DNA from: Desulfuromonadales bacterium
Lineage (GTDB): Bacteria; Desulfobacterota; JAENJC01
Length of the DNA stretch: 64,000 bases
Direction of reading: 5' to 3'
NCBI GenBank assembly: GCA_919902985.1
Contig: CAKKSC010000021.1
Coordinates: forward strand, 29,676 to 93,675
The notes under the pieces were generated by a model that saw only the letters and a list, made by a program, of their open reading frames with translations, had not been told where the DNA came from and did not search any database. The first letter of the stretch is position 1, and the number at the start of each line of letters is the position of its first letter. Of this stretch, positions 7,268-35,356 are shown in pieces. The position numbers and the translations under genes are program-made.

Positions 7268-7268
7268 A

Positions 7269-9252: not shown

Positions 9253-9334
9253 CCTCTCGCCTTCCTTGACAAACTCAAAATCCGTGGTAAGTTTTGTCAT
9301 CTTCTAACGAGGTCAACAATGGCACGCATTTTGA

Positions 9335-9605: not shown

Positions 9606-9624
9606 GTGCGCCGCAAGAGGATGT

Positions 9625-13477: not shown

Positions 13478-13553
13478 AAAGACCTCCTGTTTCAGAGGAT
13501 AGCATTTTGCCGGATAAAGTCAAGTATTGAACTGGAACCGGGTGAGGGAAAGT

Positions 13554-15659: not shown

Positions 15660-15725
15660 GTCCCTTGCATACATTCTACTTGCTGGTAAAATTTAACAGA
15701 TAATCAATATCTAAGGAGGTATTTT

Positions 15726-16280: not shown

Positions 16281-16302
16281 AGAAGGTCCAACGGTAAGGC
16301 TT

Positions 16303-20798: not shown

Positions 20799-21947
20799 TT
20801 ATGCCGGAGGTATGATAAAGCTTATCCTTGTTCCTTTACCGTATTCACTTTCGATACTTAACTTCCCACCCATTGATGCTACAAGATGCTTTACAATGGC
20901 AAGTCCCAGGCCGGTTCCGCCCAGTTCTCTTGAGCGGGCAGGGTCAACCCTGTAGAAGCGCTCACCGAGCCTCGGGATATCCTTTGGCGGTATTCCGGTC
21001 CCGGTGTCAGTGACGGAGATTTGTACTAACGCCCCAGAAGTTAAGAGGTTAAGAGGTTGAGAGGTTATTATTCGTGCGTTGATTCTCACTGACCCTTTCT
21101 CTGTGAACTTTATCCCGTTGTCTACGAGATTTAAAAGTATCTGAGCCAGCCTGTCCTTGTCAGAAAGGGCATGGACCCCTTTTTCAATATCCAGTTCAAG
21201 GTTTAGCCCCTTGGCCTTTGCCTTAGGTTCCAGGGTTGAAATAACCATTCTTGCCACTTCTTCGATCTCCACAGCCCTTATATCAAAGCTTACCTTACCG
21301 AGTTCGATGTTGGACAGGGTCAGGAGGTCTTCCACAAGCCTTGAGAGCCTGTCGGCATTCTCCTTTATTATATCAACAAACCTGGCGGCGTGTTCCTTGT
21401 CGTTAATGGCCCCTTCCTTCAACGTCTCAGCAAACCCTTTAATGGCGGTCAGCGGGGTCTTTAGCTCGTGGGATACATTGGCCACAAAGTCTATCCTCAT
21501 TGTCTCAAGTTTTTTGAGCAGGGTTATCTCATGGAAGACTATGACCGAACCGAGTCTTTCAGTATTGCGAATGAGAGGGGTCATTGTCACTGAGAGGCTT
21601 ACGGAATTAGGGGCAGCAATAGTTATTTCTCCGGTTACCGTCTCTCCCTTTTTACTCCCCTCCTCAATGATCCTGTGAAGCTCAGGGTTTCTTGATATCT
21701 CAACAACTCTTTTCTCAAGGAGTTCTTTGCCGAAAAGCTCTTCAGCCTTCCTGTTGGCCATTGTCACGTTCCCTTTGGGGTCCGTAACTATGACCCCCTC
21801 TTCCATACTGGCAAGGATGGCCTCTCTCTGCTCTTTTTCGTCTTTAAGCTTTTCCAGAGTGACCCTTAGTTCAGATGAGAGCCTGGAAAGCTCGGAATCT
21901 GGTTCTTTTTTTCCTGATGGGAAGAGCTTGGTAAACATATCTTTCAA
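20799..21947 (-). CDS. PAS-domain sensor histidine kinase (PAS - HisKA - HATPase_c), PhoR-like core
   Basis: H-box VANVSHELKTPLTAIKGF. N, G1 and G2 boxes are present (NLVDNGIKF, DTGTGI, GTGLGLAIV). Convergent with aspS with only a 7-nt gap. Confidence 0.85.
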   Translation of the reverse strand: MKDMFTKLFPSGKKEPDSELSRLSSELRVTLEKLKDEKEQREAILASMEEGVIVTDPKGNVTMANRKAEELFGKELLEKRVVEISRNPELHRIIEEGSKKGETVTGEITIAAPNSVSLSVTMTPLIRNTERLGSVIVFHEITLLKKLETMRIDFVANVSHELKTPLTAIKGFAETLKEGAINDKEHAARFVDIIKENADRLSRLVEDLLTLSNIELGKVSFDIRAVEIEEVARMVISTLEPKAKAKGLNLELDIEKGVHALSDKDRLAQILLNLVDNGIKFTEKGSVRINARIITSQPLNLLTSGALVQISVTDTGTGIPPKDIPRLGERFYRVDPARSRELGGTGLGLAIVKHLVASMGGKLSIESEYGKGTRISFIIPPA

Positions 21948-22191
21948 AAATATACCTTCGTCGGTTTTTTATGAAACTTGACAGTCATATTAATAACAGC
22001 TTTCCGTCCGCCGATTCTAAGTAGACTTTAGAGAATAAAGCATACTCTGTCAAGAAAAATGAACTGAAAAATGAGCTGAATTGTACTCCTGTTTCAGGGT
22101 AAATTTATCAACTTACCCACTTTGCAAAATTCCGCACCCGTGCTAAGCTTTCTCTGTAAAACTGGAGAAACAGTTATGGCACCTACCTTGC

Positions 22192-22230
<39 letters not shown>

Positions 22231-22334
22231 TTTGCCCTAGCGGCAAGTCTGTTGCGGATTTTGGAAATTCAAAAACCTCGGTTTCACCGGAGCAGCGGTG
22301 GCCGGGGTTTTTGTTTTTTAGGGCGGAGGGGTAC

Positions 22335-23987
22335 ATGAGCGTCAGGACGAAATTGATCTTAATGTTTGCGGGCATTGCTATGCTTGTCGGTATTGGCGCC
22401 TCCTTCTACGTCATATATGACCATTGGATAGAAGCCGATGAGCACGCTGCACGCCATGCTGAAGGCTCCGCCAGAGCCTTTGCCTTTGCCATGGTCTCCG
22501 AGGATCTATCAGCAAACTCCACACCCATATATAAATCTCCAGTGCAGCTACAGAATTTCATTACCGATCTGCACGCGAAACTCAAACAAGATATTGAGTT
22601 GGTGGATACCCAAAAGAAGATACTCGGAGACGCAATCCCCGAAGATGTGGGCACAGTACTTGACCATGATAGTAATGACGAAGTGGGGCAGACGATAAGG
22701 GACGGCATCACCAGGACGCTGATTGAAACAAGCGCGGATTATCCCCAGGGGATTCGTCAGATCGCAGTCCAGGTCAAGACGAAACAGGGGGAAGTAGTTG
22801 GCGCCCTCCTCCTTGAGTACACAAATGTTTATGACGAACACATTGCCGATGCAAAAAGAGAGATGCTCTATTTTTACATGGAAGCACTCATCTCGGTATT
22901 CATGGTCAGCCTGATCGGGTTTTGGTTCGCCAGAAGCATCACCAATCCGATTCTGAAGTTGGCCAAGGCGAGCGGCGAGATGGCAGCAGGCAATCTTGAT
23001 GTAATAGTGGAGGTTGCATCGAAGGACGAGATTGGCGACCTCGCCACGGCCTTTAACAATATGGTGGAATCGAGGAAGTTGGCAGAGAAAAAGGCAAGGG
23101 AGAGCGAAAACCGCTTCAGGAAACTCTTTGAAAACTCCAACGACGCCATCTTCATCAATGATGCAGAAACGAGCCGTATTCTCGATGTCAACGAGCGGGT
23201 GCTGAAAAACCTGGGATATACCAGGGAAGAATTACTGGCGATGAGGGTCACCGATATCGAGGCTACCCTGCCGGATAAATTCTCATGGGAAAACCACATG
23301 AGGGAACTCGACGCAGCGGGTTTCATGCTCCTCGAAGGCCGACACAGGAGAAAGGATGGCGTCGTATTCCCCGTTGAGATCAGTGTAAGGAACATTCAGG
23401 CGGAAGAGAAAAAGTTCAATCTTGCCATCGTCCGCGACATCACCGAGCGGAAAAAGGCGGAGGAAAAGCTATTGGAGAGCAGGAAGACGATAGAATCTGT
23501 CCTGAACGCTACCACTGACGCGCTGTTTCTGATAGATGCCGCAGGGAATATCCTTGCATTGAATGAAACAACCGCCGGGAGGCTTGCTAAAAAACCAGGG
23601 GAGCTTATCGGTTCCTGCATATATGACCATCTGCCTCCCGCTATTGCGCAGGCAAGGAAGGCGTATGTTGATGAGGCGATGCGCACCGGCAAAACCGTAA
23701 GGTTTGAAGATGAACACAATGGAGAGTGGCTGGACAACAGTATATTCCCTATCTCTGATGAACAGGGAAAGCTTGTAAGGGCTGTCATTTATGGCCACTA
23801 CATCACAGACCGCAAGAACGCGGAGAAGGAGCTTAAGGAAAAGTCCGCAAATCTTGAGAGGTTCAACAGGCATATGGTCGGCAGGGAGATGCGTATGCTT
23901 GAGATGAAAAAAGAGGTGAACGACCTCCTTGAGAGGCTGGGAGAGCCGAAGAGGTATGAATGGACGAAAGAGGGGGAATCTTCATGA
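22335..23987 (+). CDS. Membrane sensor: TM - periplasmic-type sensor region - TM - HAMP - PAS - PAS - conserved C-terminal coiled-coil tag. No enzymatic output domain
   Basis: GGAGGG RBS 4-5 nt before the ATG at 22335 (MSVRTKLILMFAGIAML...). The second TM is followed by HAMP (ITNPILKLAKASGEMAAGNLD...EIGDLATAFNNM). Two PAS folds follow. It ends in GREMRMLEMKKEVNDLLERLGE. The ORF is open from 22122. Confidence 0.7.
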   Translation: MSVRTKLILMFAGIAMLVGIGASFYVIYDHWIEADEHAARHAEGSARAFAFAMVSEDLSANSTPIYKSPVQLQNFITDLHAKLKQDIELVDTQKKILGDAIPEDVGTVLDHDSNDEVGQTIRDGITRTLIETSADYPQGIRQIAVQVKTKQGEVVGALLLEYTNVYDEHIADAKREMLYFYMEALISVFMVSLIGFWFARSITNPILKLAKASGEMAAGNLDVIVEVASKDEIGDLATAFNNMVESRKLAEKKARESENRFRKLFENSNDAIFINDAETSRILDVNERVLKNLGYTREELLAMRVTDIEATLPDKFSWENHMRELDAAGFMLLEGRHRRKDGVVFPVEISVRNIQAEEKKFNLAIVRDITERKKAEEKLLESRKTIESVLNATTDALFLIDAAGNILALNETTAGRLAKKPGELIGSCIYDHLPPAIAQARKAYVDEAMRTGKTVRFEDEHNGEWLDNSIFPISDEQGKLVRAVIYGHYITDRKNAEKELKEKSANLERFNRHMVGREMRMLEMKKEVNDLLERLGEPKRYEWTKEGESS

Positions 23988-24005
23988 AATATGGAGGGTT
24001 TTTAA

Positions 24006-25265
24006 ATGCTTAATACGGTAAAGGTCCCGGAACAGCTTGCGCCTCTGTTTGAAAAGGCCCAGGAGTACGTCGGGAGGTATTTTCAGGAAAGGAAGGAGGA
24101 CCCGTCTAAGGGGACTATCGAGATATTCGGGGAGCGGTACATACTTGTAAGGGCTGCCTCCATGTCCGTGGATTTTTTTGAGACTGTTTCAAAGCTGTAT
24201 GAAAAGGAGGGGGAAGAAGAGGGAAGAAATATTGCAAGGCAACTCCTTTTTGATATAGCCCATGCCATAGGCAAACAGGACGCCCGAAACTTCCATAAAA
24301 AGATGGAGCTGAAAGACCCCATCGAAAAGCTGTCTGCGGGGCCTATCCATTTTTCCCATACTGGTTGGGCCTTTGTTGATATCTTTGCGGAATCCAGACC
24401 TTCCTCAGACGAAGATTATTACCTCATCTATGACCATCCTTATGCCTTTGAGTCTGCCGCATGGATTGCATCGGGGAAAAAGAGCGACTTCCCTGTCTGT
24501 GTGATGAACGCGGGTTACTCATCAGGATGGTGCGAGGAGAGCTTCGGCATCCCCCTTGTGGCCTCGGAGATCATGTGCACGGCAAAGGGGGATGAAGCCT
24601 GCCGGTTTATCATGGCGCCGCCGTCAAGGATCGAAGGGCATATAGCAGACTACATGAAAAGGGAGCCGGAACTGGCAAAGAAGATCACAAGATACGAGGT
24701 GCCCGGTTTCTTCAAGAGAAAGGAGATGGAAGACGAACTGAAAAAGGCATACGAGTTTATGAACGCCATTATAAACGCCATCCCTTCGCCTTTTTACGTC
24801 ATAGATGCAGATGATTACAAGGTCAAGCTGGCCAACGCGGCATTTGGTCCAAGAGATGGATGGGAGGGGAAGACCTGTTATGATGTTACTCATCATAGGG
24901 ATGAACCCTGCACCGGCGAGCATGTATGCCCTCTCGCTGAGGTAAAGAGGACAAAGAGACCTGTGGTAGTCGAGCATATTCATTACGACGAGGACGGCAG
25001 GCCAAGACTATACGAGGTACACGGGTCTCCCATATTAGACAAAGACGGCAATGTCGTCCATATGATTGAGTACAATCAGGACATTACAGAGAGGAAGAAG
25101 ATGGAGGAATCTTTGAAAAAGGCCAATAAGGAGCTTCTGGATAAGACCACCCGTCTTGAGATGTTCCAGAAGATGACTATGGGGAGGGAGCAGAGGATAA
25201 TGGAGTTGAAGAAGGAAGTGAACGAGCTCCTTGAAAGGCTTGGCGAGCATAGGAGATATGAATAG
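24006..25265 (+). CDS. V4R-like (4-vinyl-reductase-type) ligand-binding domain - Cys-rich PAS domain - conserved C-terminal coiled-coil tag
   Basis: The N-terminal ~200 aa resembles the V4R/XylR-N fold (ERYILVRAASM...GWCEESFGIPLVASEIMCTAKGDEACRF). The PAS region carries a CxxxxxxxxCxxxxxC cluster (CYDVTHHRDEPCTGEHVCP). It ends in GREQRIMELKKEVNELLERLGE. Confidence 0.55.
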   Translation: MLNTVKVPEQLAPLFEKAQEYVGRYFQERKEDPSKGTIEIFGERYILVRAASMSVDFFETVSKLYEKEGEEEGRNIARQLLFDIAHAIGKQDARNFHKKMELKDPIEKLSAGPIHFSHTGWAFVDIFAESRPSSDEDYYLIYDHPYAFESAAWIASGKKSDFPVCVMNAGYSSGWCEESFGIPLVASEIMCTAKGDEACRFIMAPPSRIEGHIADYMKREPELAKKITRYEVPGFFKRKEMEDELKKAYEFMNAIINAIPSPFYVIDADDYKVKLANAAFGPRDGWEGKTCYDVTHHRDEPCTGEHVCPLAEVKRTKRPVVVEHIHYDEDGRPRLYEVHGSPILDKDGNVVHMIEYNQDITERKKMEESLKKANKELLDKTTRLEMFQKMTMGREQRIMELKKEVNELLERLGEHRRYE

Positions 25266-25353
25266 GGTTCTTTTTCATTCCAAATGGGTGATCTTTGGAT
25301 GTTAGTGTTTGAAATTCCTCCCCCCAGCGGGGGGAGGTTGGGAGGGGGGAAAG

Positions 25354-25821
25354 ATGGGGGAATTTACCACCGGCAATTCAGTAAAAAAGCTTTTTATTCC
25401 CCAGCCTGTGCCTGCTCCCCTTCTTGAGGCTGCCCGTAATATGAGAAAGGGGATGACAGATGCGAAGCAACTGTTATGGTTCTGCCTGCGCCGCAAGCAG
25501 ATTGGCGGGTTCAGATTTCGCAGGCAGCATCCGTTTGAGCGATTTGCCCTTGACTTCTACTGCTGCGAAGCAAAACTTGCGATGGAGCTTGACGGCGGGC
25601 ATCACAATGAAGTCGGCGTCCATGCCCGCGATAATGAGAGGACCGCAATCCTTGAGCATCATGGCATTAAGGTAATCAGATTCTGGAATAACGAGGTTTT
25701 TCGCAATATGGAGGGCGTATTGCAAACAATTTATGATACGTTGCTGGAGAGAACGACAAAGAACCCCCTCCCCGACCCTCCCCCGCTTGGGGAGGGAAAT
25801 GCATTTCCCCACTTTAAATGA
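25354..25821 (+). CDS. DUF559 / Vsr-like endonuclease-domain protein
   Basis: Has the pattern ARNMRKGMTDAKQLLW...FRFRRQHPFERFALDFYC...LAMELDGGHH...ILEHHGIKVIRFWNNEV. It is flanked on both sides by CCCCCTCC/GGAGGGGG-type GC-rich hairpins. Confidence 0.6.
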   Translation: MGEFTTGNSVKKLFIPQPVPAPLLEAARNMRKGMTDAKQLLWFCLRRKQIGGFRFRRQHPFERFALDFYCCEAKLAMELDGGHHNEVGVHARDNERTAILEHHGIKVIRFWNNEVFRNMEGVLQTIYDTLLERTTKNPLPDPPPLGEGNAFPHFK

Positions 25822-25855
25822 GAAAGAACTTGAATAGTCTAAAAAGGAGGCGGTC

Positions 25856-26398
25856 ATGAAAGGGATAGTCTTTAACCTGCTTGAGGAGTTCATCACTTCG
25901 ATGCTTGGCGAGGAGAAGTATGAGGAGATAGTTGCCGGATGCGACCTGAAGACAAAGGAGCCGTTTGTCGGCCCGGGCACATATCCCGACGAGGACCTGT
26001 TTGCAATCGTGGGCAAGACGGTTGCGGTAAGCGGGATTGCACTGCCTGATGCACTTCGTGGATTCGGCAGATTTTGTTTTCCGAGGCTGGCTGAAAAGTT
26101 CCCGGTGTTTGTGACTGCCCATAATCATCCGAAACCGTTCCTCAAAAGCGTGGAGACCGTAATACATGTTGAGGTAAAAAAACTCTATCCTGATGCAGTG
26201 CTGCCCTCTTTCACCTATGACAACCCTGCCCCTGATAGGCTCATCATGAGATATTCATCTAAAAGGAGGCTCTGTCATCTCATGGAAGGGTTGATTGACG
26301 GAGTCGCCGAATATTACAAAACCCCAATCAGGCGCAGGCAGACAAAGTGTCTGCTGGAAGGGGGGAATGAGTGCGAGTTTGAGCTGAGCTTTGGTTAA
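25856..26398 (+). CDS. Stand-alone H-NOX (heme nitric oxide/oxygen-binding) sensor domain protein
   Basis: AAGGAGG RBS. The N-terminus MKGIVFNLLEEFI matches the H-NOX start. A proximal His-Pro pair is in VETVIHVEVKKLYPDAVLP. The heme-propionate-binding Y-x-S-x-R motif is present as RYSSKRR. Confidence 0.8.
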   Translation: MKGIVFNLLEEFITSMLGEEKYEEIVAGCDLKTKEPFVGPGTYPDEDLFAIVGKTVAVSGIALPDALRGFGRFCFPRLAEKFPVFVTAHNHPKPFLKSVETVIHVEVKKLYPDAVLPSFTYDNPAPDRLIMRYSSKRRLCHLMEGLIDGVAEYYKTPIRRRQTKCLLEGGNECEFELSFG

Positions 26399-26562
26399 AT
26401 CTAAAAAGAACATTTAACCGCAGAGGGCGCAGAGGGAACTCTAATACTCCCCTCCCCTGGCGGGAGGGGATTGAGGGGAGGGGGAACGTGTTATAAGTCT
26501 AAGGGAACAGCATTGGGGTTAGGGGGCGCTATGAGGGACTATTTCCGCAGCAGAGAGAAAAG

Positions 26563-27849
26563 ATGAAAGAGGAAATCCTTGAAAAGAAGTTGGAGAGGGA
26601 GCGGCAAAAGGTCAATATCCTCGAGAAGATGATAGAGGACAGGACCCGCGAACTCTACATCGTCAATGAATATCTCCAGAACATCAACAACTCTATGGCG
26701 GACACCCTTATCGTCGTCAACCCGGACGGCACGATAAGGAGCGCCAACCGCGCCGCCCTTAATATGCTCGGATACACTGAAGATGAACTGAGGGGAAAAG
26801 ATATTGAGACCCTTTTCGAGAAAGGAGTGGGAACCGGGCCTTCCGGTTTCGGCAGACAAGACTCCGCCGCGAGGAGCGAGACGACCTGCGTCACAAAGGC
26901 CGGAAGGAATATCCCTGTCATACTCTCACGCTCGACAATGAAAGACCTGGACGGGGCCGTCCTTGGCGTCGTATGCCTGGCCCTTGATATCTCGGAACGC
27001 AAAAAAACTGAGGAAAAACTCAGGAAGGCATACGATGAAATCAAGGCGACCCAGGACGCAAGCCTCAGCATCATGGAGGACATGGAGATCCAGAGGAAGA
27101 AGCTGGAGGCAACCGTCAGGGAGAAGGACGCCCTAATGAGTCAGGTTGAAAGGGCCAACAAGGAGCTGCAGGACTTTGCATATATCGTCTCCCACGACCT
27201 CAAGGCCCCGCTCCGTGCCATAGGCACAATTTCAAGCTGGATAGCGGAGGACTATAAGGACAAACTTGACGATGCAGGCAGGGAACAGCTCTTCGTCCTC
27301 CTCCAGAGGACGAAGAGGATGCACGATATGATAGAGGGAATACTCCAGTATTCGAGGGTGGGGAGGATAAAGGGGACGCCTGAGACAATAGACACGGGGA
27401 AGGTTGCGGAACAGGTGAGAGAGGCGCTTTCTTCGCCTGCCAATATGCAAATCAAAATTCATGCGCCGATGCCTGCTATTTTCATAGATCCTGTCCAGAT
27501 AAACCAGATCATCCAAAACCTGATAAGCAACGCAATCAAATATATGGACAAGCCGGAGGGTCTGGTAGAGGTGGGTTGCAGGGATGCAGGAGAGTTTTGG
27601 GAGTTCTATGTTAAGGACAACGGCCCCGGCATAGAAGAAAAGCACTTTGAACGGATATTCCAGATATTCCAGACCCTGAAGGCGCGCGACGAGTTTGAGA
27701 GCACGGGGATAGGTCTGACGATAGTAAAGAAGATAATAGAGCAGAGCGGCGGAAGGGTTTGGGTGGAATCGGAGGTCGGGAATGGGAGCACGTTTAAATT
27801 TACAATACCGAAAGGTACAACGCCCCCGACTTCGTTACCCCCTCTTTAG
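26563..27849 (+). CDS. PAS-domain sensor histidine kinase, a candidate H-NOX partner kinase
   Basis: PAS fold (SMADTLIVVNPDGTIRSAN...). HisKA H-box FAYIVSHDLKAPLRAI. N, G1 and G2 boxes of HATPase_c (ISNAIKY, DNGPGI, GIGLTIVKKI). Confidence 0.85.
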   Translation: MKEEILEKKLERERQKVNILEKMIEDRTRELYIVNEYLQNINNSMADTLIVVNPDGTIRSANRAALNMLGYTEDELRGKDIETLFEKGVGTGPSGFGRQDSAARSETTCVTKAGRNIPVILSRSTMKDLDGAVLGVVCLALDISERKKTEEKLRKAYDEIKATQDASLSIMEDMEIQRKKLEATVREKDALMSQVERANKELQDFAYIVSHDLKAPLRAIGTISSWIAEDYKDKLDDAGREQLFVLLQRTKRMHDMIEGILQYSRVGRIKGTPETIDTGKVAEQVREALSSPANMQIKIHAPMPAIFIDPVQINQIIQNLISNAIKYMDKPEGLVEVGCRDAGEFWEFYVKDNGPGIEEKHFERIFQIFQTLKARDEFESTGIGLTIVKKIIEQSGGRVWVESEVGNGSTFKFTIPKGTTPPTSLPPL

Positions 27850-27891
27850 TAAAGAGGGGGTTGGGGGGAGTTGAAAGGGGGAGGGTTTTAA

Positions 27892-28815
27892 ATGGGAGAG
27901 CGTATCCGCATTCTCCATATAGAAGACGATGAGGTGGTTCAAATGGCAGTAAAAAGGAAGGTAAAGGTCGACGGCCTTCCATACGATATTGACGTAGCGC
28001 CGACCCTCGCTGCGGCATTGGAGCTTTTTGGAAAGAAGAGGTATGACATTGCGGTTCTCGACTATATGCTCCCGGACGGGACAGGACTTGACCTGCTTCC
28101 GAAGATAAAAGGGGTTCCGGCCATTTTTGTGACCGGAAGCGGGGATGCCACTGTGGCTGTTAAAGCTTTAAAGGGCGGGGCTTATGATTATCTTATAAAG
28201 GATGCAGGGAATGAATATATAGAACTCCTTCCTGCGACTATAGAAAAGGTCTTGCGCACCTTTAGTTTGGAGCAGGAGCACATAAAGGACGAGGAGCAGA
28301 TTCGCATATTGAACAAAGAGTTGTCAAAGATGTACGAAGAGGCCAGGGAATGTTCACTCCACGATCCGCTCACCGGGCTTGCCAACAGGCGCCTCATGGA
28401 AATTAACCTTAAGCGGGATATTGAAAGGACAAAGAGGACAGACGGGCGGCTTTCCGTATTAATGCTGGACATTGACTATTTCAAAAAATACAACGACACG
28501 CACGGTCATCCGGCAGGGGACAGGCTCCTTGCCGCAATAGCAAAGGTGCTGACCGAGGAGGTAAGGGGGGCGGACCTTGTTGCGAGGTACGGCGGGGAGG
28601 AGTTCTTTGTACTCCTTCCTGACACAAACCTTGACGGAGCGCTGAATACGGCCGAAAGAGTAAGGAAGGCTGTCTCCGGGAGTCTTGGCGTCACCATTAG
28701 CATCGGAGCGGTTTCATACAGAAAGGAAGAGAAGATGGAGGAGTTCATAAACAGAGCGGATGCGGCGCTTTATAGGGCAAAAGAGGGCGGGAGAAACAGG
28801 GTGGAGGAGGGTTAA
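27892..28815 (+). CDS. Response regulator - diguanylate cyclase (REC-GGDEF, PleD/WspR-like)
   Basis: REC motifs ILHIEDDE...AVLDYMLPDGTG...FVTG...K. The GGDEF domain has HDPLTGLANRR and an intact active site RYGGEEF. Confidence 0.85.
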   Translation: MGERIRILHIEDDEVVQMAVKRKVKVDGLPYDIDVAPTLAAALELFGKKRYDIAVLDYMLPDGTGLDLLPKIKGVPAIFVTGSGDATVAVKALKGGAYDYLIKDAGNEYIELLPATIEKVLRTFSLEQEHIKDEEQIRILNKELSKMYEEARECSLHDPLTGLANRRLMEINLKRDIERTKRTDGRLSVLMLDIDYFKKYNDTHGHPAGDRLLAAIAKVLTEEVRGADLVARYGGEEFFVLLPDTNLDGALNTAERVRKAVSGSLGVTISIGAVSYRKEEKMEEFINRADAALYRAKEGGRNRVEEG

Positions 28816-28882
28816 AGAAGCCGTCAGCGGTCAGCAGAATCTTTGGCTGAAAACTGAAAGCTGATAGCTGTTTGGAGGTTTT

Positions 28883-29314
28883 ATGCGCAATAACATACCT
28901 ATTTTGCTGCTTGAGGACGACCGGGTGGACGTGATGACGGTCCGGAGGGCATTTAAGGTGAATAAGATAGCAAACCCGCTCTTTGTCGTCCAGAATGGGG
29001 AGGAGGGCCTGAAATTCCTGCGGCATCAGGACGGGTTCAGCGACCCTGAAAAATCGCCGAAGCCGGGGATAATGCTCCTTGACCTGAACATGCCTCTAAT
29101 GAACGGGATAGAGTTCCTGAAGGTCGTTAAGTCTGATGACGATTTGAAACGTATTCCGGTTGTCGTCCTTACTACTTCAAAGGTCGATGAAGACAGGGTC
29201 GAGAGCTTCAATCTAAGCGTTGCGGGCTACATAATAAAGCCTGTGGAGTTTGAAAAGTTCGTGGAGGCGGTAAAGCTCATTGATCTTTACTGGACGCTGA
29301 GCGAGTTGGGTTGA
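28883..29314 (+). CDS. Single-domain CheY-like response regulator
   Basis: 143 aa with the REC signature (ILLLEDD...MLLDLNMPLMNG...VVVLTTS...K). Confidence 0.8.
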   Translation: MRNNIPILLLEDDRVDVMTVRRAFKVNKIANPLFVVQNGEEGLKFLRHQDGFSDPEKSPKPGIMLLDLNMPLMNGIEFLKVVKSDDDLKRIPVVVLTTSKVDEDRVESFNLSVAGYIIKPVEFEKFVEAVKLIDLYWTLSELG

Positions 29315-29338
29315 TATCTATGTTTAAAGGAGGCAGTT

Positions 29339-29881
29339 ATGGAAGAGAAACGTATCAAGATACTGAATATTGAGGACGAGGACATTGACCATCTGGCATT
29401 GATGAGAATGGTGAAGGAAAAGGGCCTTCTTTATGAGGTGGAGAGGGCGGCCAATCTTGCAGGGGCATTAAAGCTCCTTGGAGAGAAGAAGTATGACGTT
29501 GCCCTGATAGACTACAGGCTTCCGAACGGGACAGGCCTTGACATCCTGGATAAACTTAAAGGGACAGCCTCAATCTTTGTTACCGGAAGCGGGGATGAAA
29601 GGGTGGCTGTGAAGGCGATGAAGGGCGGGGCAAATGACTACATCATAAAAGACCCGAATGGGGCATATCTGGAGATGCTTCCGGCAGTGGTTGACAAGGC
29701 TATGGAGGCGGTCAGCCTGAAGAAGGAAAAGGAAGAGGCTGAAAGGAAGCTCAGGGAGAAGCTGGACACAGAAGAACGATTGAATAAACTGCTGCTCAAA
29801 AGGGAGTTCAGGATAAAGGAGCTCAGGGATGAGAACGACAAGTTGAAGGAGAGGATCGGAGAGCTTCAGAAGAAGCTGTAG
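29339..29881 (+). CDS. Response regulator (REC) with conserved C-terminal coiled-coil tag
   Basis: REC signature (ILNIEDED...ALIDYRLPNGTG...FVTG...K). It ends in KREFRIKELRDENDKLKERIGELQKKL. Confidence 0.75.
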   Translation: MEEKRIKILNIEDEDIDHLALMRMVKEKGLLYEVERAANLAGALKLLGEKKYDVALIDYRLPNGTGLDILDKLKGTASIFVTGSGDERVAVKAMKGGANDYIIKDPNGAYLEMLPAVVDKAMEAVSLKKEKEEAERKLREKLDTEERLNKLLLKREFRIKELRDENDKLKERIGELQKKL

Positions 29882-29896
29882 AGACGTTGTCTCTGC

Positions 29897-30580
29897 TTAT
29901 TCCATTGAGAACCTGTATCCAGTGCCTCTTACGGTCTTTATCAACCTTGCCCCCTCGGGCTCTATCTTTTCCCTGAGCCTTCTTATGTGGACATCAACGG
30001 TCCTCGGCTCTACAAACGCCTCATCTCCCCATACAAGGTCAAGGAGCTGGTCCCTGTTGTACACCCTTTCCTGATGGGTGATGAAGAACTTTAAAAGCCT
30101 GAATTCGAGGGGGCTCAGCGTTATAACCCTTCCATTCAGTTTGACCTCGTGGGTTGAGAGGTCTGCATGGAGCCCTTCGAAGTCATAGACCTCATTCCCA
30201 GCGCCCTCCTTACTGGTTCTCCTGAGCAACGCCCTGACCCTTGCGGTAATCTCCCTTACGCTGAACGGTTTTGTCACATAGTCGTCTGCGCCGGTTTCCA
30301 GCCCGGTTATCTTATCGGTCTCCTGTCCCCTGGCAGTAAGCATGATTATCGGTATCAACGCAGTTTTGGGGTCTTTCTTCAATATCCCGCATAGCTCCAG
30401 TCCGTCAATCCCTGGAAGCATGAGGTCGAGGATTATAAGGTCTGGATTTGAATTCCTGGCCGCTTCTTTCCCGCTTATTCCATCTTTGGCGGTAAGGATG
30501 GAAAACCCTTCTTTCTTAAGGTTGTAGGAGAGAAGGTCCAGGATATCCTGTTCGTCATCTATTATAAGGATAGTGGGCAT
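29897..30580 (-). CDS. phoB: OmpR/PhoB-family response regulator (REC + winged-helix); last gene of the pst-phoU cluster
   Basis: REC motifs ILIIDDEQD...IILDLMLPGIDG...IIMLTARG...K. The C-terminal trans_reg_C part has VHIRRLREKIE...IKTVRGTGYRF. Synteny is with phoU-pstBACS; no phoR is adjacent. Confidence 0.75.
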   Translation of the reverse strand: MPTILIIDDEQDILDLLSYNLKKEGFSILTAKDGISGKEAARNSNPDLIILDLMLPGIDGLELCGILKKDPKTALIPIIMLTARGQETDKITGLETGADDYVTKPFSVREITARVRALLRRTSKEGAGNEVYDFEGLHADLSTHEVKLNGRVITLSPLEFRLLKFFITHQERVYNRDQLLDLVWGDEAFVEPRTVDVHIRRLREKIEPEGARLIKTVRGTGYRFSME

Positions 30581-30590
30581 AGTTACATCC

Positions 30591-30649
30591 GGGGACAGTC
30601 CCTATTCTACGACTTCGCTGCGCTTCGTCCGTAAATAGGGACAGTCCCC
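30591..30649. repeat. 59-bp REP-like element, copy 1 of 3 (GGGGACAGTCCC...core...GGGACAGTCCCC)
   Basis: Each end is a GGGAcagTCCC mini-hairpin flanking a 35-nt core (tattctacgacttcgctgcgcttcgtccgtaaat). Lies between phoB and phoU. Confidence 0.8.
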
Positions 30650-30655
30650 TCCGGT

Positions 30656-31342
30656 TCACGGATTTTCCTGCTGCGGCTTTATATGCCTTATCACCTTTCC
30701 CTTGACCATGAAGACCACCATTTCTGCGATGTTTGTGGCGTGGTCTGCAATGCGTTCAAGGTATTTAGAGATGAAAAGGATCTTCATTGCCCTTGATATG
30801 GTGTTGGGGTCCTCCATCATGAATGTCAGGAGTTCCCTGAATATCTGCCTGTTTAGGTCGTCCACAAAGTCATCCTCTGCAAGGACCCTTGTGGCCAGGT
30901 CGGTGTCTCCGTTTACAAAGGCGTCAAGGCTCTCTTTCAGCATCCTCTGGGCGGCCTCGGCCATTCGCGGTATATCTATGTAAGGCTTCAGAGGAGCCTC
31001 CTCGTTAAGCTCAAGGACCCTTTCACAGACGTTTACAGCCATGTCCCCGATCCTTTCAAGGTCGGTGATTATCTTTATGGCTGTTGTGATGAGCCTCAGG
31101 TCTGAAGCAGCAGGTTGACGCAGTGCCAGTACCTTGAGGCAGAGCTCGTCAATCTCAACCTCCAGACCGTTCACCACATGGTCATTCTCAATGGTACTTT
31201 CGGCCAATTGCGTATCCCTTTCCACCAGGGCCTTTATGGAATTAGCAATCCCTTCCTCGACAAGGCCGCCAAGCCGGAGGACCTTCTCCTTGATCAACCT
31301 CAGTTCTTCTTCGTACTGCTTTATTATATGTGTCTCGGACAT
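30656..31342 (-). CDS. phoU: Phosphate-transport system regulatory protein PhoU
   Basis: Two PhoU repeats with the conserved ...LERIGD... motifs. Sits downstream of pstB. Confidence 0.85.
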   Translation of the reverse strand: MSETHIIKQYEEELRLIKEKVLRLGGLVEEGIANSIKALVERDTQLAESTIENDHVVNGLEVEIDELCLKVLALRQPAASDLRLITTAIKIITDLERIGDMAVNVCERVLELNEEAPLKPYIDIPRMAEAAQRMLKESLDAFVNGDTDLATRVLAEDDFVDDLNRQIFRELLTFMMEDPNTISRAMKILFISKYLERIADHATNIAEMVVFMVKGKVIRHIKPQQENP

Positions 31343-31371
31343 ATTTCCTCCAAGTGGCTGATTTCAATACC

Positions 31372-31430
31372 GGGGACAGTCCCTATTCTACGACTCCGTT
31401 TCACTCCGTCCGTAAATCGGGACAGTCCCC
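31372..31430. repeat. 59-bp REP-like element, copy 2 of 3
   Basis: Same termini as copy 1. The core is cgactccgtttcactccgtccgtaaatc, with a few substitutions. Lies between phoU and pstB. Confidence 0.8.
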
Positions 31431-31431
31431 T

Positions 31432-32202
31432 CTATCCAAACCTTCCTGTTATGTAATCTTCTGTAAGTTTGTGAGACGGGACTGTGAAGACCTTTTCCGT
31501 TTTATCGAATTCGATTAGCTCTCCTATATACATGAATGCCGTGTAGTCTGAAACCCTCGCAGCCTGTTGCATATTGTGGGTTACAATTAATATGGTTACT
31601 TCTTTCTTCAACTCAAGTATCAGTTCTTCTATCTTTGCCGTAGCTATTGGGTCAAGGGCCGATGTAGGTTCATCAAATAAAAGTATCTCAGGATCGGTAG
31701 CAAGGGCCCTTGCTATGCAGAGTCTCTGCTGCTGACCACCGGACAGGTTAAAGGCCAGGTCATGGAGCCTGTCCTTTGCCTCTTCCCATATGGCGGCGCC
31801 CCTGAGTGACTTTTCAACTCTTTCATCCAGTTCACTCCTCCTCCGTATCCCCCTCACCTTTGGTCCATAGGCTACGTTTTCGTAAATAGATTTTGGGAAA
31901 GGGTTAGGCCTCTGGAATACCATACTGATCCGCATCCTTACCTCTATGGGGTCGATATCGGGGCCGGCGATATTAAGAGCGTCCGGGTGCAGGATTATCT
32001 CTCCTTCGTACCGGTTGTTAGGGTAAAGGTCATGCATCCTGTTGAAACACCTGAGATAAGTAGTCTTTCCGCAACCGGACGGGCCAATCAGCGCTGTAAC
32101 CTTTTTCTCGGCAATATTGAGATTTATATCTTTTAATGCCTTCACCGAACCGTAATAAAAATTCAGGTTCCTGACCTCTGCCTTGATTTTTTCATCTACC
32201 AT
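31432..32202 (-). CDS. pstB: Phosphate ABC transporter ATP-binding protein PstB
   Basis: Walker [13 protein letters not shown] signature LSGGQQQRL, Walker [13 protein letters not shown]. The N-terminal pattern is typical of PstB. Confidence 0.9.
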
Positions 32203-33122
32203 TTTATCCTCTTTCTGAATCTGTATCTTATGTAAATAGCTATTCCATTCATTATGAGCGTCATGACCAGGAGGATTACTCCGGCAGCAGCTGCATTATG
32301 TTGAAACGCTGCCTCTGGACGGGATGTCCAGTTAAACATCTGTATGGGCATCACAGTAAAAGGATCCATCAGCCACCTGAAGGATACGAAGGGGAAAACG
32401 TCGCTGAAAGGAGACTGCGGCAAGAACGCTATGAATGTCAGAGCGCCGATGGTGATGACAGGGGCGGTCTCTCCTATTGCCCTTGACAGTCCCATTATAG
32501 TTCCCGTAAGTATCCCGCCAAGGGAATACGGCAGGACATGGTCCCTTACCGTCTGCCATTTGGTAGCGCCTAAGGCGTAGGCCGCCTCCCTTATGCTCCC
32601 CGGAACAGCGCGGATGGCCTCCCTTGCAGACACTATGACAATCGGCAATATCAGGAGGGCAAGTGTGAGACCGGCAGAAAGGATGCTCTGCCCGAAGTCA
32701 AGTTTATAGACAAATAACCCCAACGCCAGCAGGCCGTAAACAATGGACGGCACGCCTGCCAGGTTTGTCACATTTATTTCAATTATGGCGGTAAGCCAGT
32801 TTTTTCGGGCATATTCCTCAAGATAGACGGCTGATGCTACGCCGAGGGGAACGGCGGAAGCGGCCGTAACCAGCATGATCAGGGTGGTGCCTACCCATGC
32901 GGAAAGTATCCCTGCTTTTTCCGGGTGACGGGAAGGGAAGGAAGTAAATAACTTCCAGCCTATACGCGGCGCCCCTTCAATTGCCAGTTCCGTAAATAAT
33001 GCCAGTAAGGTCAGAATCCCAACCATGAGTGAGAGGATGCCTACTATGGCGAATATGTGGTCCCAAAGCTTGTGCCGGGCAATCATTCTGCGGATATGGT
33101 CAATGGACTGCTCAGGCATCAA
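32196..33122 (-). CDS. pstA: Phosphate ABC transporter permease PstA
   Basis: Polytopic permease with the [15 protein letters not shown]-loop motif. Overlaps pstB and pstC. Confidence 0.85.
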
Positions 33123-34039
33123 TAAACCTCCCTGAATCGTTTCGCCAGGAAGTAGCCGAGAATATTAAAGATCAGGGTGATCAGCATAAGTGACAGGCCC
33201 GCGACGAATATGGTCTGATACCCGATGCTTCCGTGTGGCAGGTCTCCCAGGCTGACCTGGACAATATATGCGCTAATGGTTGCTGCCGGTTCCATGGGGT
33301 TCAATGTCAGGTTCGGCTGCTGACCTGCGGCTATGGCCACGATCATTGTTTCTCCGACTGCGCGGGATATGCCGAGTATATAGGCGGAGGCAATGCCTGA
33401 AAAAGCGCTTGGTATAATCACCCTGACAGCGGTCTGGAACCTCGTTGCTCCCATGGCATAAGAACCTTCAAGGATGTGTTTCGGAACTGCATGCATGGCA
33501 TCCTCGCTCACTGATGCGATATAAGGCACGATCATTATACCCATAACCAGTCCGGCGCTCAACATATTAAATCCAGGTAAGCCAGGGATGAGCTTTTGCA
33601 TGATAGGGGTCACGAAGATAAGGGCAAAATATCCGAATACAACGGTAGGGACGGCGCCCAGCAGTTCGAGAAATGGTTTTATGATTTCACGCACACGGTG
33701 CGGGGCGAATTCACAAAGATATATAGCAATGGTAGTGCCCAGAGGGATGGCAACCAGCAATGCCACGCCGGTTGTCACAAGGGTGCCTGCCATGAGGGGC
33801 ATGATGCCGTAATGGGCGTCGTCAAACAGCGGCGTCCACTGAATGTCTGTAAGAAAAACAAGCAGCGGGACATGCCTGAAAAACGGGATGGACTCGATGA
33901 CAAGTATTGAGACAATTGCGAATGTGGTGGCTACCGATGACAGAGCGGCAAGGAAAAGGATTGATTCAATAATAAATTCGCGCACACGCCGCAAACGGCT
34001 GCGGCCTGAGTATTTATTGTTAGCTTTGTTTGATGGCAA
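33119..34039 (-). CDS. pstC: Phosphate ABC transporter permease PstC
   Basis: Polytopic permease with the EGSYAMGATRFQT EAA-loop. Sits between pstS and pstA. Confidence 0.85.
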   Translation of the reverse strand: MPSNKANNKYSGRSRLRRVREFIIESILFLAALSSVATTFAIVSILVIESIPFFRHVPLLVFLTDIQWTPLFDDAHYGIMPLMAGTLVTTGVALLVAIPLGTTIAIYLCEFAPHRVREIIKPFLELLGAVPTVVFGYFALIFVTPIMQKLIPGLPGFNMLSAGLVMGIMIVPYIASVSEDAMHAVPKHILEGSYAMGATRFQTAVRVIIPSAFSGIASAYILGISRAVGETMIVAIAAGQQPNLTLNPMEPAATISAYIVQVSLGDLPHGSIGYQTIFVAGLSLMLITLIFNILGYFLAKRFREVY

Positions 34040-34140
34040 GAATTAACACCTTAAGAACATTTATTAAAACAATGGAGTCAAAAAAGACCACCCTTAATCC
34101 CCTCCTTGACAAGGAGGGGAATGGGAAGGTGGCCCGTTTT

Positions 34141-35154: not shown

Positions 35155-35202
35155 TTTTCCTCCATTTGCTAACATTTTACCAGCAGAGTATGCCAGAGAA
35201 AT

Positions 35203-35235
35203 GTTACAGTTATATTACAGTTCCCTTAAAATTGT
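35203..35235 (-). promoter_or_regulatory. Pho-box-like array upstream of pstS: GTTACA / ATTACA / CTTAAA hexamers at exact 11-bp phasing
   Basis: On the plus strand the hexamers start at 35203, 35214 and 35225. Read on the gene's coding strand they are TGTAAC-type repeats 49-80 nt upstream of the pstS ATG. This resembles PhoB/PhoP boxes (E. coli CTGTCAT-N4 repeats; B. subtilis TT(A/T/C)ACA repeats). Confidence 0.6.
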
Positions 35236-35260
35236 CAAGCCGTGCTTCTACCCCATCCCC

Positions 35261-35350
35261 GCCCTGACCCTCTACCCACAGGGCATAAACCCTTGAAGGG
35301 GAGGAACTTTTTTCCTCTCCATCAGGGAGAGGATTAAGGTGAGGGTAGGG
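35261..35350. repeat. ~100-bp GC-rich palindromic element, inverted copy of 7269..7367
   Basis: See the paired feature. Located between the porin gene stop and the pstS promoter. Confidence 0.6.
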
Positions 35351-35356
35351 TAATCT

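What the first reader, a model, noticed from the sequence alone, without database searches (positions are those of the whole stretch)
25856..29881. H-NOX-led operon: H-NOX, PAS histidine kinase, REC-GGDEF and two single-domain response regulators (candidate NO/O2-responsive c-di-GMP circuit)
Seen in sequence: the 180-aa protein has the H-NOX hallmarks. These are the N-terminal MKGIVFNLLEEF, a proximal His...Pro pair (IHVEVKKLYPDAVLP) and the Y-x-S-x-R heme-propionate motif (YSSKR). The genes that follow in the same orientation are a PAS-HisKA-HATPase kinase, a REC-GGDEF with intact GGEEF, a CheY-like REC, and a REC carrying the shared C-terminal tag.

Established knowledge: H-NOX genes are typically paired with histidine kinases or diguanylate cyclases and control biofilm and c-di-GMP levels in response to NO (the HnoX/HnoK systems).

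Inference: this is a ligand-regulated multikinase-style network with three downstream regulators. One of them could link it to the coiled-coil-tag network. The two PAS-GAF-HD-GYP proteins nearby would supply the opposing phosphodiesterase activity.
Basis: partly seen in the sequence, partly recalled or inferred. Interest (0 to 1): 0.6.

Follow-up and report, generated by a model that had tools for sequence, protein, structure and literature searches.

The report
H-NOX sensor with kinase and regulators
This is a genuine but fairly ordinary bacterial nitric-oxide-type haem sensor gene followed by its partner histidine kinase and three response regulators, one of which makes the biofilm signal c-di-GMP; the only unusual part is a widespread, undescribed C-terminal helix on the neighbouring sensor proteins.

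Summary
All five genes are real at the stated coordinates. The 180-aa protein is a bona fide H-NOX: Pfam HNOB 2.5e-35, model TM 0.91 to Shewanella H-NOX, proximal His104, Pro117, Y133-S135-R137. It lacks the distal Tyr/Trp/Asn network, so it is the NO type, not the O2 type. It also has the known Cys3+Gln zinc site.

The kinase 164 nt downstream is its cognate partner. It aligns end to end with H-NOX-adjacent kinases from many phyla. Its first 39 residues carry a helix signature (KVxILExMIEDRTRELY) found directly after hnoX in 75 of 80 genomes and nowhere else in those loci or this window.

REC-GGDEF (GGEEF, RGAD I-site), a CheY-like REC and a REC-plus-helix paralogue follow, all with intact phospho-acceptor residues.

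Corrections: H-NOX does not lead the operon. It is the fourth gene of a co-directional cluster (22311-29881), behind two 'tagged' sensors and a 565-bp mobile DUF559 insertion. The two nearby HD-GYP proteins lack the partner signature.

Verdict: a new member of the known HnoX/HnoK family with a diguanylate-cyclase output. The C-terminal tag helix (about 18,800 clusters, unannotated) is the only potentially novel element.

The parts
21948..22310 (+). Divergent intergenic region at the head of the co-directional cluster. It holds a (CAGA)9 repeat at 22193-22228 and a hairpin plus T-run just before the first gene.
   Evidence: Sequence. The repeat number differs between assemblies of the same population: 9 units in the window and L003, 8 in L001 and L002. 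No sigma-70-like site on the + strand passed the scan here.
22311..23987 (+). Membrane HAMP-PAS-PAS sensor ending in the C-terminal tag helix (tag about 23853-23984). The likely true start is the ATG at 22335.
   Evidence: Pfam HAMP and two PAS. Gene call in L001. Tag profile 70.5 bits.
24006..25265 (+). V4R/XylR_N-PAS sensor ending in the tag helix (about 25155-25262). Its PAS carries a C-x5-H-x5-C-x6-C motif (24876-24932).
   Evidence: Pfam V4R, XylR_N and PAS_4. Tag 62 bits. Orthologues sit 9-18 nt upstream of hnoX in L092 and L011.
25266..25830 (+). 565-bp insertion carrying a DUF559 (Vsr-like endonuclease fold) gene (25309-25821). It has 23-bp terminal inverted repeats and a 7-bp direct duplication TGAATAG (25259-25265 and 25831-25837). 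It is not part of the signalling system.
   Evidence: Pfam DUF559 7.4e-35. Empty site in L092 and L011. Terminal repeats found only at these two places in the window. Coordinates.
25856..26398 (+). Stand-alone H-NOX haem sensor. Key residues: H104 proximal ligand, P117, Y133/S135/R137 propionate triad, L142/L9/C74 in place of the O2-binding Tyr/Trp/Asn, and C140/Q162/C165/C173 zinc site.
   Evidence: AlphaFold model pLDDT 91.4; TM 0.91 and rmsd 2.0 A to 4U99.
26399..26562 (+). 164-nt spacer between hnoX and the kinase gene, with REP-like repeats (CGCAGAGG units, G-rich palindrome 26449-26483). No terminator, no Rfam family.
   Evidence: Fold z-score -0.07. The equivalent 172-nt spacer in L093 forms a long hairpin, z -6.3.
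26563..27849 (+). HnoK-type cytoplasmic histidine kinase: N-terminal H-NOX-partner helix (aa 3-39, nt 26569-26679), PAS (aa 37-147), HisKA with H211, and HATPase_c (N-box 319, G1 352, G2 382).
   Evidence: Pfam. Motifs. Full-length alignment to H-NOX-adjacent kinases. Partner-helix profile E 7.7e-18, the only hit in the window.
27892..28815 (+). REC-coiled coil-GGDEF response regulator and diguanylate cyclase. Residues: D12/D13, D57, T81, K103, I-site R225-x-x-D228, GGEEF 234-238.
   Evidence: Orthologue follows the kinase in L093 and lies upstream in L011 and L092.
28883..29314 (+). Single-domain CheY-like receiver (D12/D13, D67, T97, K119).
   Evidence: Homologues of 42-44% identity directly follow the H-NOX-linked kinase in L034 and L020.
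29339..29881 (+). Receiver (D58, T82, K104) plus helical linker plus the C-terminal tag helix (about 29771-29878). Its receiver is a paralogue of the cyclase's receiver.
   Evidence: 55% identity over 124 aa to the REC of 27892-28815. Tag 56 bits. The tag subtype REFRIKELRDEND is shared with 11286-13019.

Best explanation
This is an HnoX/HnoK-type accessory-sensor two-component system with a branched output.

Proposed mechanism:
1. The 180-aa H-NOX binds haem through His104. Because it lacks the distal hydrogen-bond network, it binds NO (five-coordinate nitrosyl, His release) rather than O2.
2. It acts in trans on the cytoplasmic kinase encoded 164 nt downstream. The kinase presents a family-specific N-terminal helix followed by a PAS domain.
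3. By analogy with every characterised H-NOX/kinase pair, the activated H-NOX inhibits autophosphorylation at His211.
4. That lowers phosphotransfer to three receivers: the REC-GGDEF cyclase (D57), a CheY-like REC (D67) and a REC-plus-helix paralogue (D58).
5. The net output is a change in c-di-GMP synthesis. For a REC-coiled coil-GGDEF of this size, phosphorylation most likely activates it, so NO would lower c-di-GMP. The sign is not established.
6. The two extra receivers probably act as phosphate sink and adaptor.

Shown here: the identity and intactness of all domains and catalytic residues, conserved synteny, and the partner-helix signature.

Inferred: haem and NO binding, the direction of regulation, and which receivers are phosphorylated.
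For: H-NOX identity:
- Pfam HNOB 2.5e-35.
- PDB sequence hits to S. woodyi and S. oneidensis H-NOX, 5e-25 to 1e-22.
- Model pLDDT 91, TM 0.91 to 4U99.
- H104, P117 and Y133/S135/R137 are conserved across 46 clade members. Position 142 is never Tyr.

Kinase pairing:
- At least 49 of 80 species-level relatives have a kinase directly downstream of hnoX.
- The window kinase aligns over residues 1-417 with those kinases, scoring 100-228 bits. The window's other kinase scores 45-90 against the same targets.
- A profile of the N-terminal helix from 65 other genomes hits right after hnoX in 75 of 80 loci. It hits nowhere else in 1.35 M residues of six-frame translation, which includes other kinase cores.
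- In the window it hits only this kinase, at E 7.7e-18; the next best is 0.76.
- The order hnoX, spacer, kinase, REC-GGDEF is kept in a relative with 72% H-NOX identity, L093.

Receivers and cyclase: all phospho-acceptor and catalytic residues are intact.

Precedents: H-NOX to kinase to several response regulators, and H-NOX to kinase to REC-GGDEF (PMC8846402; PMC4436077).
Against: - No experiment. Haem incorporation, ligand specificity and phosphotransfer are all inferred.
- hnoX and the kinase gene are separated by 164 nt of repeat-rich DNA. Most relatives have the usual 4-nt overlap, so co-transcription is not proven.
- The closest long-contig relatives (66-69% identity) pair H-NOX with a PAS-GAF-HD-GYP protein, not a kinase. 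Partners therefore switch within the clade.
- In Silicibacter, phosphorylation inhibits the cyclase, so the sign of the output is open.
Confidence: 0.78

Rival explanations
1. Same wiring, but the physiological signal is oxidant or thiol redox state. It would be sensed at the Cys3-Gln zinc site of the H-NOX (C140, Q162, C165, C173), with or without haem, rather than NO. Caulobacter H-NOX and haem-free Vibrio cholerae H-NOX behave this way.
For: The 3 Cys + His/Gln motif is present and conserved in the clade: C140 in 43/46, Q/H/E162 in 45/46, C165 in 43/46, C173 in 45/46. The motif and its redox switching are documented in PMC7108781 and PMC12329717. In the latter, the Fe(II)-NO form did not inhibit HnoK but Cys oxidation did.
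Against: The haem-binding residues are just as strictly conserved (H104 or H103, P117, YxSxR in 46/46). That argues haem matters. The two inputs are not mutually exclusive. The source is a groundwater 'Deltaproteobacteria' MAG, where NO from nitrogen cycling is a plausible signal.
Confidence: 0.15
2. The adjacent kinase is not the H-NOX target. H-NOX would act on another effector, such as the two PAS-GAF-GAF-HD-GYP proteins 7-12 kb upstream, and the present adjacency would be a by-product of rearrangement around repeat elements.
For: The nearest long-contig relatives couple H-NOX directly to PAS-GAF-HD-GYP proteins. hnoX is bracketed by a mobile insertion and a repeat-rich 164-nt spacer.
Against: The H-NOX-coupled HD-GYP proteins of relatives start with the partner helix. 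The window's HD-GYP proteins do not: no hit at E<=10. The window kinase does, at E 7.7e-18. The same hnoX-spacer-kinase-cyclase order occurs in L093.
Confidence: 0.04
3. The protein is an O2 sensor, or a non-haem small-molecule (hydrocarbon) binding V4R-like protein, as some automatic annotations say.
For: Pfam also reports a V4R match over residues 132-178 (1.3e-08). JGI labels several homologues 'predicted hydrocarbon binding protein'.
Against: The V4R match covers only the shared zinc-ribbon-like C-terminus. The whole chain matches H-NOX structures at TM 0.91, against about 0.5 for the related TRAPP/Bet3 fold. The O2-stabilising Tyr140/Trp9/Asn74 equivalents are L142/L9/C74 and are never Tyr/Trp/Asn in 46 relatives.
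Confidence: 0.03

Closest known systems
HnoX/HnoK/HnoB/HnoC/HnoD network of Shewanella oneidensis and Vibrio cholerae
   Same: A stand-alone NO-type H-NOX with a Cys3+His/Gln zinc site. A cytoplasmic kinase gene lies immediately downstream on the same strand. One kinase feeds three receivers, and the output is c-di-GMP.
   Different: The outputs are REC-GGDEF, a CheY-like REC and a REC-plus-helix, not REC-EAL, REC-HTH and a degenerate REC-HD-GYP. The kinase has a SHDLKAPL-type HisKA, whereas the kinases of the two Cellvibrionaceae hno-like clusters I read (L028, L040) have an AHEINTP-type H-box. A 164-nt spacer replaces the overlapping genes. Extra tagged sensors sit in the same cluster. H-NOX identity to So H-NOX is only about 29-30%.
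Silicibacter sp. TrichCH4B H-NOX / hybrid kinase / Hpt / SiliDGC (PMC4436077)
   Same: H-NOX regulates a kinase whose cognate response regulator is a REC-GGDEF diguanylate cyclase.
   Different: There the kinase is a hybrid that needs a separate Hpt, and the cyclase is an orphan gene elsewhere in the genome. Here the kinase is not hybrid and the cyclase gene is adjacent.
Caulobacter crescentus H-NOX/HnoK (PMC12329717)
   Same: NO-type sequence features plus the zinc-Cys site. The kinase gene is adjacent.
   Different: The Caulobacter kinase is a hybrid (it has a D543 receiver). There the functional signal was Cys oxidation rather than NO. Which applies here is unknown.
Direct H-NOX/cyclase pairs (Legionella Hnox1-Lpg1057, Shewanella woodyi H-NOX-DGC/PDE, Dinoroseobacter H-NOX-Dgc1)
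   Same: H-NOX control of c-di-GMP.
   Different: Those act by direct protein-protein contact without a kinase. Here the cyclase has a receiver domain and follows a kinase.
Small REC-coiled coil-GGDEF cyclases such as Leptospira DgcR and PleD
   Same: Same domain order and size (307 aa), GGEEF and an RxxD I-site. NCBIfam DgcR 3.5e-47 and PleD 1.4e-56.
   Different: Scores are far below the equivalog cut-offs (161 against 500 bits; 192 against 474). It is the same architecture, not an orthologue.

Membership tests
H-NOX (Pfam HNOB, PF07700) | Sequence match above the curated threshold over the whole domain | tested here: met
   122.2 bits against a 25.5 cut-off; residues 2-159 match model positions 1-160 of 163.
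H-NOX (Pfam HNOB, PF07700) | Proximal haem-ligating His on helix alpha-F | tested here: met
   H104 aligns with So H103 and Tt H102. His is at 104 in 41/46 clade members and at 103 in the other five.
H-NOX (Pfam HNOB, PF07700) | Y-x-S-x-R propionate-binding triad and the conserved Pro (Tt P115) | tested here: met
   Y133, S135, R137 and P117 are invariant in 46/46.
H-NOX (Pfam HNOB, PF07700) | H-NOX fold | tested here: met
   AlphaFold pLDDT 91.4, pTM 0.87. Foldseek TM 0.91 and rmsd 2.0 A to 4U99 over 179 columns.
H-NOX (Pfam HNOB, PF07700) | Binds haem b and a diatomic gas | not testable with these tools
   Needs expression and UV-vis spectroscopy.
NO-selective (non-O2-binding) H-NOX subclass | Absence of the distal Tyr140/Trp9/Asn74 hydrogen-bond network of Tt H-NOX | tested here: met
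   L142, L9 and C74. Position 142 is L or F in 46/46. The Tt sequence was verified against 1U4H.
Zinc-site H-NOX groups 2/3 (PMC7108781) | Three Cys plus a His/Gln at the positions of So C139, H161, C164 and C172 | tested here: met
   C140, Q162, C165 and C173. Metal binding itself was not tested.
HnoK-type H-NOX-associated histidine kinase | Gene immediately downstream of hnoX on the same strand | tested here: met
   It is the next gene, on the same strand, 164 nt away. Most relatives overlap by 4 nt. L093 has a similar 172-nt spacer.
HnoK-type H-NOX-associated histidine kinase | N-terminal helix signature shared by H-NOX-adjacent effectors. This criterion was derived here, not from the literature. 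| tested here: met
   59.4 bits, E 7.7e-18, unique in the window. The profile hits 75/80 loci right after hnoX and nowhere else.
HnoK-type H-NOX-associated histidine kinase | Catalytically competent DHp and CA (H-box His, N, G1 and G2 boxes) | tested here: met
   SHDL with H211, NLISNA at 319, DNGPG at 352, GIGL at 382. HisKA and HATPase_c are above the Pfam cut-offs.
HnoK-type H-NOX-associated histidine kinase | Autophosphorylation inhibited by activated H-NOX | not testable with these tools
   Biochemical assay needed.
Shewanella-type Hno network (HnoB/HnoC/HnoD outputs) | REC-EAL phosphodiesterase, REC-HTH regulator and degenerate REC-HD-GYP as the cognate receivers | tested here: not met
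   The three adjacent receivers are REC-GGDEF, REC and REC-plus-helix. The window's HD-GYP proteins have no receiver domain. It therefore works like this network but is not an orthologous copy of it.
Active diguanylate cyclase (GGDEF) | GG(D/E)EF active site, RxxD inhibitory site five residues upstream, and an intact receiver Asp | tested here: met
   GGEEF 234-238, RGAD 225-228, D57. GGDEF 156 bits.

The most novel reading that the evidence does not exclude
The ~35-residue C-terminal helix (consensus ELERFN(R/K)LxVGRE(L/F)(R/K)(M/I)xELKxEVNxL) may be an undescribed in-trans output module. It ends the two sensors upstream of hnoX, the last receiver of this cluster and two more proteins in the window.

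On this reading, output-less sensors (PAS, V4R, HAMP, REC, HNOBA) use it to dock onto effectors that begin with a free N-terminal helix (the HnoK-type kinase, HD-GYP proteins, a PP2C phosphatase). H-NOX docks on the kinase in a comparable way. The cluster would then be a multi-sensor hub converging on one kinase. The REC-plus-tag protein would relay the kinase state to the HD-GYP phosphodiesterases.
Probability: 0.15. Interest if true: 0.7.

Novelty: new member of a known kind. Interest (0 to 1): 0.3.

Why it matters
As it stands, this adds one more H-NOX/kinase/c-di-GMP circuit, from an uncultured groundwater 'Deltaproteobacteria' MAG. It shows that NO-type, zinc-site H-NOX proteins and their kinases are common well outside the gammaproteobacteria and alphaproteobacteria where they have been studied.

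Two by-products could be useful:
- A short N-terminal helix signature identifies the H-NOX partner gene whatever its output domain (kinase, hybrid kinase, HD-GYP). It points to where H-NOX input enters the effector.
- A very abundant, unannotated C-terminal helix on output-less sensor proteins is repeatedly found next to H-NOX genes. If it proves to be a docking module, it would explain how thousands of 'sensor-only' PAS proteins signal.

Tried and rejected
1. Tag as a degenerate DHp/H-box helix, or related to the kinase N-terminal helix. hhalign of the tag alignment against DHp regions and against the N-helix alignment gave probabilities below 2%. Rejected.
2. A structured RNA, riboswitch or terminator in the 164-nt hnoX-kinase spacer. 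There are no Rfam matches in the whole window, the folding z-score is -0.07, and no terminator was called on the + strand. The equivalent spacer in L093 is a strong hairpin (z -6.3), but it is not conserved in sequence. I read both as REP-like repeats.
3. The window's HD-GYP proteins as direct H-NOX partners. They have no partner-helix match.
4. Literature on the tag. Six characteristic strings were searched in full text; the three papers returned are on unrelated subjects.
5. Literature on the kinase side of the H-NOX interface. The two HDX-MS papers (PMID 28170222, 29457883) are not held. I cannot say whether the N-terminal helix signature is already described.
6. Stand-alone mini tag proteins. 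Contexts were mixed: a split PAS-PAS-tag in an archaeal sulfur-gene cluster, SBP-tag ahead of a large kinase, and a degraded region. They were not decisive.
8. A strict palindrome search for the G-rich element found nothing. The looser GGGGAGGG search gave 12 sites against 4.4 expected.

Full report
**1. The observation**

All five ORFs lie exactly at the coordinates given, on the + strand. The gaps between them are 164, 42, 67 and 24 nt. The last gene ends 15 nt from a convergent phoB-like gene.

Pfam domains:
- 25856-26398: HNOB, 2.5e-35.
- 26563-27849: PAS, HisKA and HATPase_c.
- 27892-28815: Response_reg and GGDEF, 7.7e-46.
- 28883-29314 and 29339-29881: Response_reg.

The window is identical in these genes to contigs from Hainich groundwater metagenomes. 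It also matches a deposited MAG labelled 'Deltaproteobacteria bacterium', proteins MEK6725761 to MEK6725793. The sequences are therefore public but only automatically annotated.

**2. The H-NOX**

- The best solved relatives by sequence are the Shewanella woodyi and S. oneidensis H-NOX proteins, at 5e-25 to 1e-22.
- I aligned 39 clade members with So H-NOX and Tt H-NOX. My typed Tt sequence was checked as identical to 1U4H.
- In that alignment H104 falls on the proximal His, P117 on Tt P115, and Y133/S135/R137 on the Y-x-S-x-R triad.
- In a 46-member alignment the triad and Pro are invariant. His is at 104 in 41 members and at 103 in the other five.
- The positions of Tt Tyr140, Trp9 and Asn74, which stabilise bound O2, are L142, L9 and C74. 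Position 142 is Leu or Phe in all 46. By the accepted sequence criterion this is the NO class, not the O2 class.
- C140, Q162, C165 and C173 reproduce the '3 Cys + His/Gln' zinc site described for So and Vc H-NOX (PMC7108781). This site also explains the partial Pfam V4R match.
- An AlphaFold model built on the alignment has pLDDT 91.4. It superposes on 4U99 with TM 0.91 and rmsd 2.0 A.

**3. Is the downstream kinase the partner?**

A scan of one genome per species returned 80 loci from many phyla: Thermodesulfobacteriota, Nitrospirota, Myxococcota, Bacteroidota, Planctomycetota, Gammaproteobacteria and others.

- With a crude ORF caller, at least 49 loci have a histidine kinase directly after hnoX, usually overlapping by 4 nt.
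- The window kinase aligns over residues 1-417 with those kinases at 25-35% identity. They score 100-228 bits against it. Against the window's other kinase (20799-21947), where there is a hit at all, they score about 45-90.
- Reading the N-termini of the genes after hnoX revealed a shared helix, roughly (K/R)(V/I)x(I/V)LExM(I/L)E(D/E)(K/R)(T/S)R(E/D)L(Y/F). It is present whatever follows: PAS-kinase, short kinase, hybrid kinase or PAS-GAF-HD-GYP.
- A profile built from 65 of these hits right after hnoX in 75 of 80 loci. Two of the five misses are contigs that end within or about 120 nt after hnoX. There are three further domain hits, all inside hnoX-downstream proteins. Nothing else hits in 1.35 M residues of six-frame translation, which holds 93 ORFs with kinase cores.
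- In the window it hits only 26563-27849 (E 7.7e-18; next best 0.76). It does not hit the two HD-GYP proteins.
- I could not access the two HDX-MS papers on the kinase side of the interface. I cannot say whether this signature is already described.

**4. The wider gene cluster**

The closest relatives correct the 'H-NOX-led' picture.

- L092 (89% H-NOX identity): a V4R-PAS-tag gene ends 9 nt before hnoX, with a REC-GGDEF gene upstream.
- L011 (84%): the order is REC-GGDEF, TM-PAS-tag, PAS-tag, hnoX.
- L093 (72%): a PAS-GAF-tag gene overlaps hnoX, followed by a 172-nt spacer, a 417-aa kinase very like the window's, and REC-GGDEF.

In the window the genes from 22311 to 29881 are co-directional, with short gaps and no predicted + strand terminator.

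The DUF559 gene between the V4R-PAS-tag gene and hnoX is a 565-bp insertion (25266-25830). It has 23-bp terminal inverted repeats and a 7-bp duplication TGAATAG. The empty site is seen in L092 and L011.

The hnoX-kinase spacer holds REP-like repeats. It has no stable fold or Rfam family.

**5. The receivers**

- All three have the acidic pocket, phospho-acceptor Asp, Thr and Lys.
- The cyclase has GGEEF and an RGAD I-site at the canonical spacing.
- The receiver of 29339-29881 is 55% identical to that of the cyclase. It is a recent paralogue in which GGDEF is replaced by the tag helix, so it plausibly shares the same kinase.
- Single-domain receivers of 42-44% identity to 28883-29314 follow the H-NOX-linked kinase in an Armatimonadota and a Bacteroidota MAG.
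- REC-GGDEF proteins of the same size follow it in two Myxococcales MAGs.
- The REC-tag protein has no counterpart among the 80 loci.

**6. Mechanism and rivals**

In all characterised H-NOX/kinase pairs but one, the Fe(II)-NO form inhibits autophosphorylation. I therefore take NO, then H-NOX, then kinase inhibition, then less receiver phosphorylation, then altered cyclase activity as the most likely mechanism (0.78).

The sign at the cyclase is open. Phosphorylation inhibits SiliDGC, whereas small REC-coiled coil-GGDEF enzymes are generally activated (my own knowledge of DgcR and PleD).

The main rival is redox sensing at the zinc-Cys site, as in Caulobacter. There the NO form was inactive (PMC12329717).

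An H-NOX-to-HD-GYP pairing, as in relatives L007, L009, L014 and L094, is unlikely here. The window's HD-GYP proteins lack the partner helix.

**7. The tag**

- The C-terminal helix occurs on five window proteins, plus a truncated copy.
- It has no Pfam family, and a full-text search for its characteristic strings returned only three unrelated papers.
- A profile finds 18,787 clusters at E<=1e-3 among 1.84 billion representatives. It is nearly always at the extreme C-terminus of proteins with no recognised output. Nine of the ten internal copies I scanned are followed by a PocR or CHASE domain.
- Outside the immediate clade it is again adjacent to H-NOX genes:
  - L020: HNOB, HNOBA-tag, HNOB, kinase.
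  - L024: H-NOX, then partner-helix-PAS-tag, then coiled-coil-SpoIIE phosphatase.
  - L034: a PAS-PAS-tag gene overlapping hnoX.
- It is not detectably related to DHp helices.
- Its function is unknown. A docking role is a low-probability but testable idea.

**8. Verdict**

This is a real, well-formed H-NOX/HnoK-type system with a diguanylate-cyclase branch. It is a new member of a known kind. It is of modest interest in itself, with two reusable sequence signatures as by-products.

Noticed in passing
window 25266-25830 (TSD 25259-25265 and 25831-25837): The DUF559 gene sits on a 565-bp element with 23-bp terminal inverted repeats and a 7-bp target-site duplication (TGAATAG). It is inserted exactly between the stop codon of the V4R-PAS-tag gene and the hnoX ribosome-binding site. 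Relatives L092 and L011 show the empty site. This suggests DUF559 can travel as cargo of a small MITE/IS-like element.
   Followed up: yes
window 22193-22228: A (CAGA)n tetranucleotide repeat lies in the intergenic region at the head of the sensor cluster. It has 9 units here and in L003 but 8 in L001 and L002, which are the same population from other samples. It is a possible contingency or phase-variable element.
   Followed up: partly
window 12873-13016, 16152-16277, 23853-23984, 25155-25262, 29771-29878; truncated copy near 10440-10530: A shared C-terminal helix, ELERFN(R/K)LxVGRE(L/F)(R/K)(M/I)xELKxEVNxL, occurs on output-less HAMP-PAS, V4R-PAS and REC proteins. It has no Pfam family. About 18,800 clusters in the 1.84-billion-protein library carry it, almost always at the C-terminus. 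There are two subtypes in the window: GRExRMxELKKEVN and REFRIKELRDEND.
   Followed up: partly
window 26569-26679 and the genes after hnoX in L012-L091: An N-terminal helix signature (KVxILExMIED(K/R)TRELY) marks the gene following hnoX in 75 of 80 genomes, whatever its output domain. It looks like a signalling helix left at the N-terminus of the effector, as if sensor and effector were a split fusion.
   Followed up: yes
window 24876-24932; L009, L014, L094 downstream proteins: The PAS domain of the V4R-PAS-tag protein carries C-x5-H-x5-C-x6-C (CYDVTHHRDEPCTGEHVCP). Closely similar Cys-rich motifs occur in the PAS domain of the H-NOX-coupled PAS-GAF-HD-GYP proteins of relatives; L009 and L014 keep the His, L094 has Tyr there. 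It may be a metal or cluster site.
   Followed up: no
window 26399-26562; ends of L011 and L092; L093 1546-1717: REP-like repeats (CGCAGAGG units, G-rich palindromes) start right after the hnoX stop codon. Two relatives' contigs end within 81 and 91 nt after the hnoX stop, inside this repeat region, and L093 has a long hairpin there (z -6.3). GGGGAGGG occurs 12 times in the window against 4.4 expected.
   Followed up: partly
L020 5667-8975; L024 266-2669: In a Bacteroidota MAG an sGC-like HNOB gene is followed by an HNOBA-plus-tag protein, a second H-NOX and a kinase. In a groundwater Bacteroidia MAG, H-NOX is followed by a 198-aa partner-helix-PAS-tag protein and then a coiled-coil SpoIIE/PP2C phosphatase. 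These are H-NOX partners whose only 'output' is the tag.
   Followed up: partly
window 9550-10533: A CheR-like methyltransferase has a long coiled coil that ends in what looks like a truncated tag (ERLNRLMVNGEEG). It may be a frameshift or a decayed copy.
   Followed up: no
window 11286-18954: A second signalling sub-cluster has the order HAMP-PAS-PAS-tag, a 146-aa ORF without Pfam match, PAS-GAF-GAF-HD-GYP, REC-tag, PAS-GAF-GAF-HD-GYP. Both HD-GYP proteins begin with long N-terminal helical extensions.
   Followed up: partly
window 5151-10533 and 29897-36601: Upstream there is a CheR gene (5151-6125), a CheB gene (6212-7267) and the CheR-like gene at 9550-10533. Downstream, convergent with the cluster, are phoB, phoU, pstB, two permease genes, a phosphate-binding protein gene and a phosphate-selective porin (Porin_O_P) gene.
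   Followed up: no
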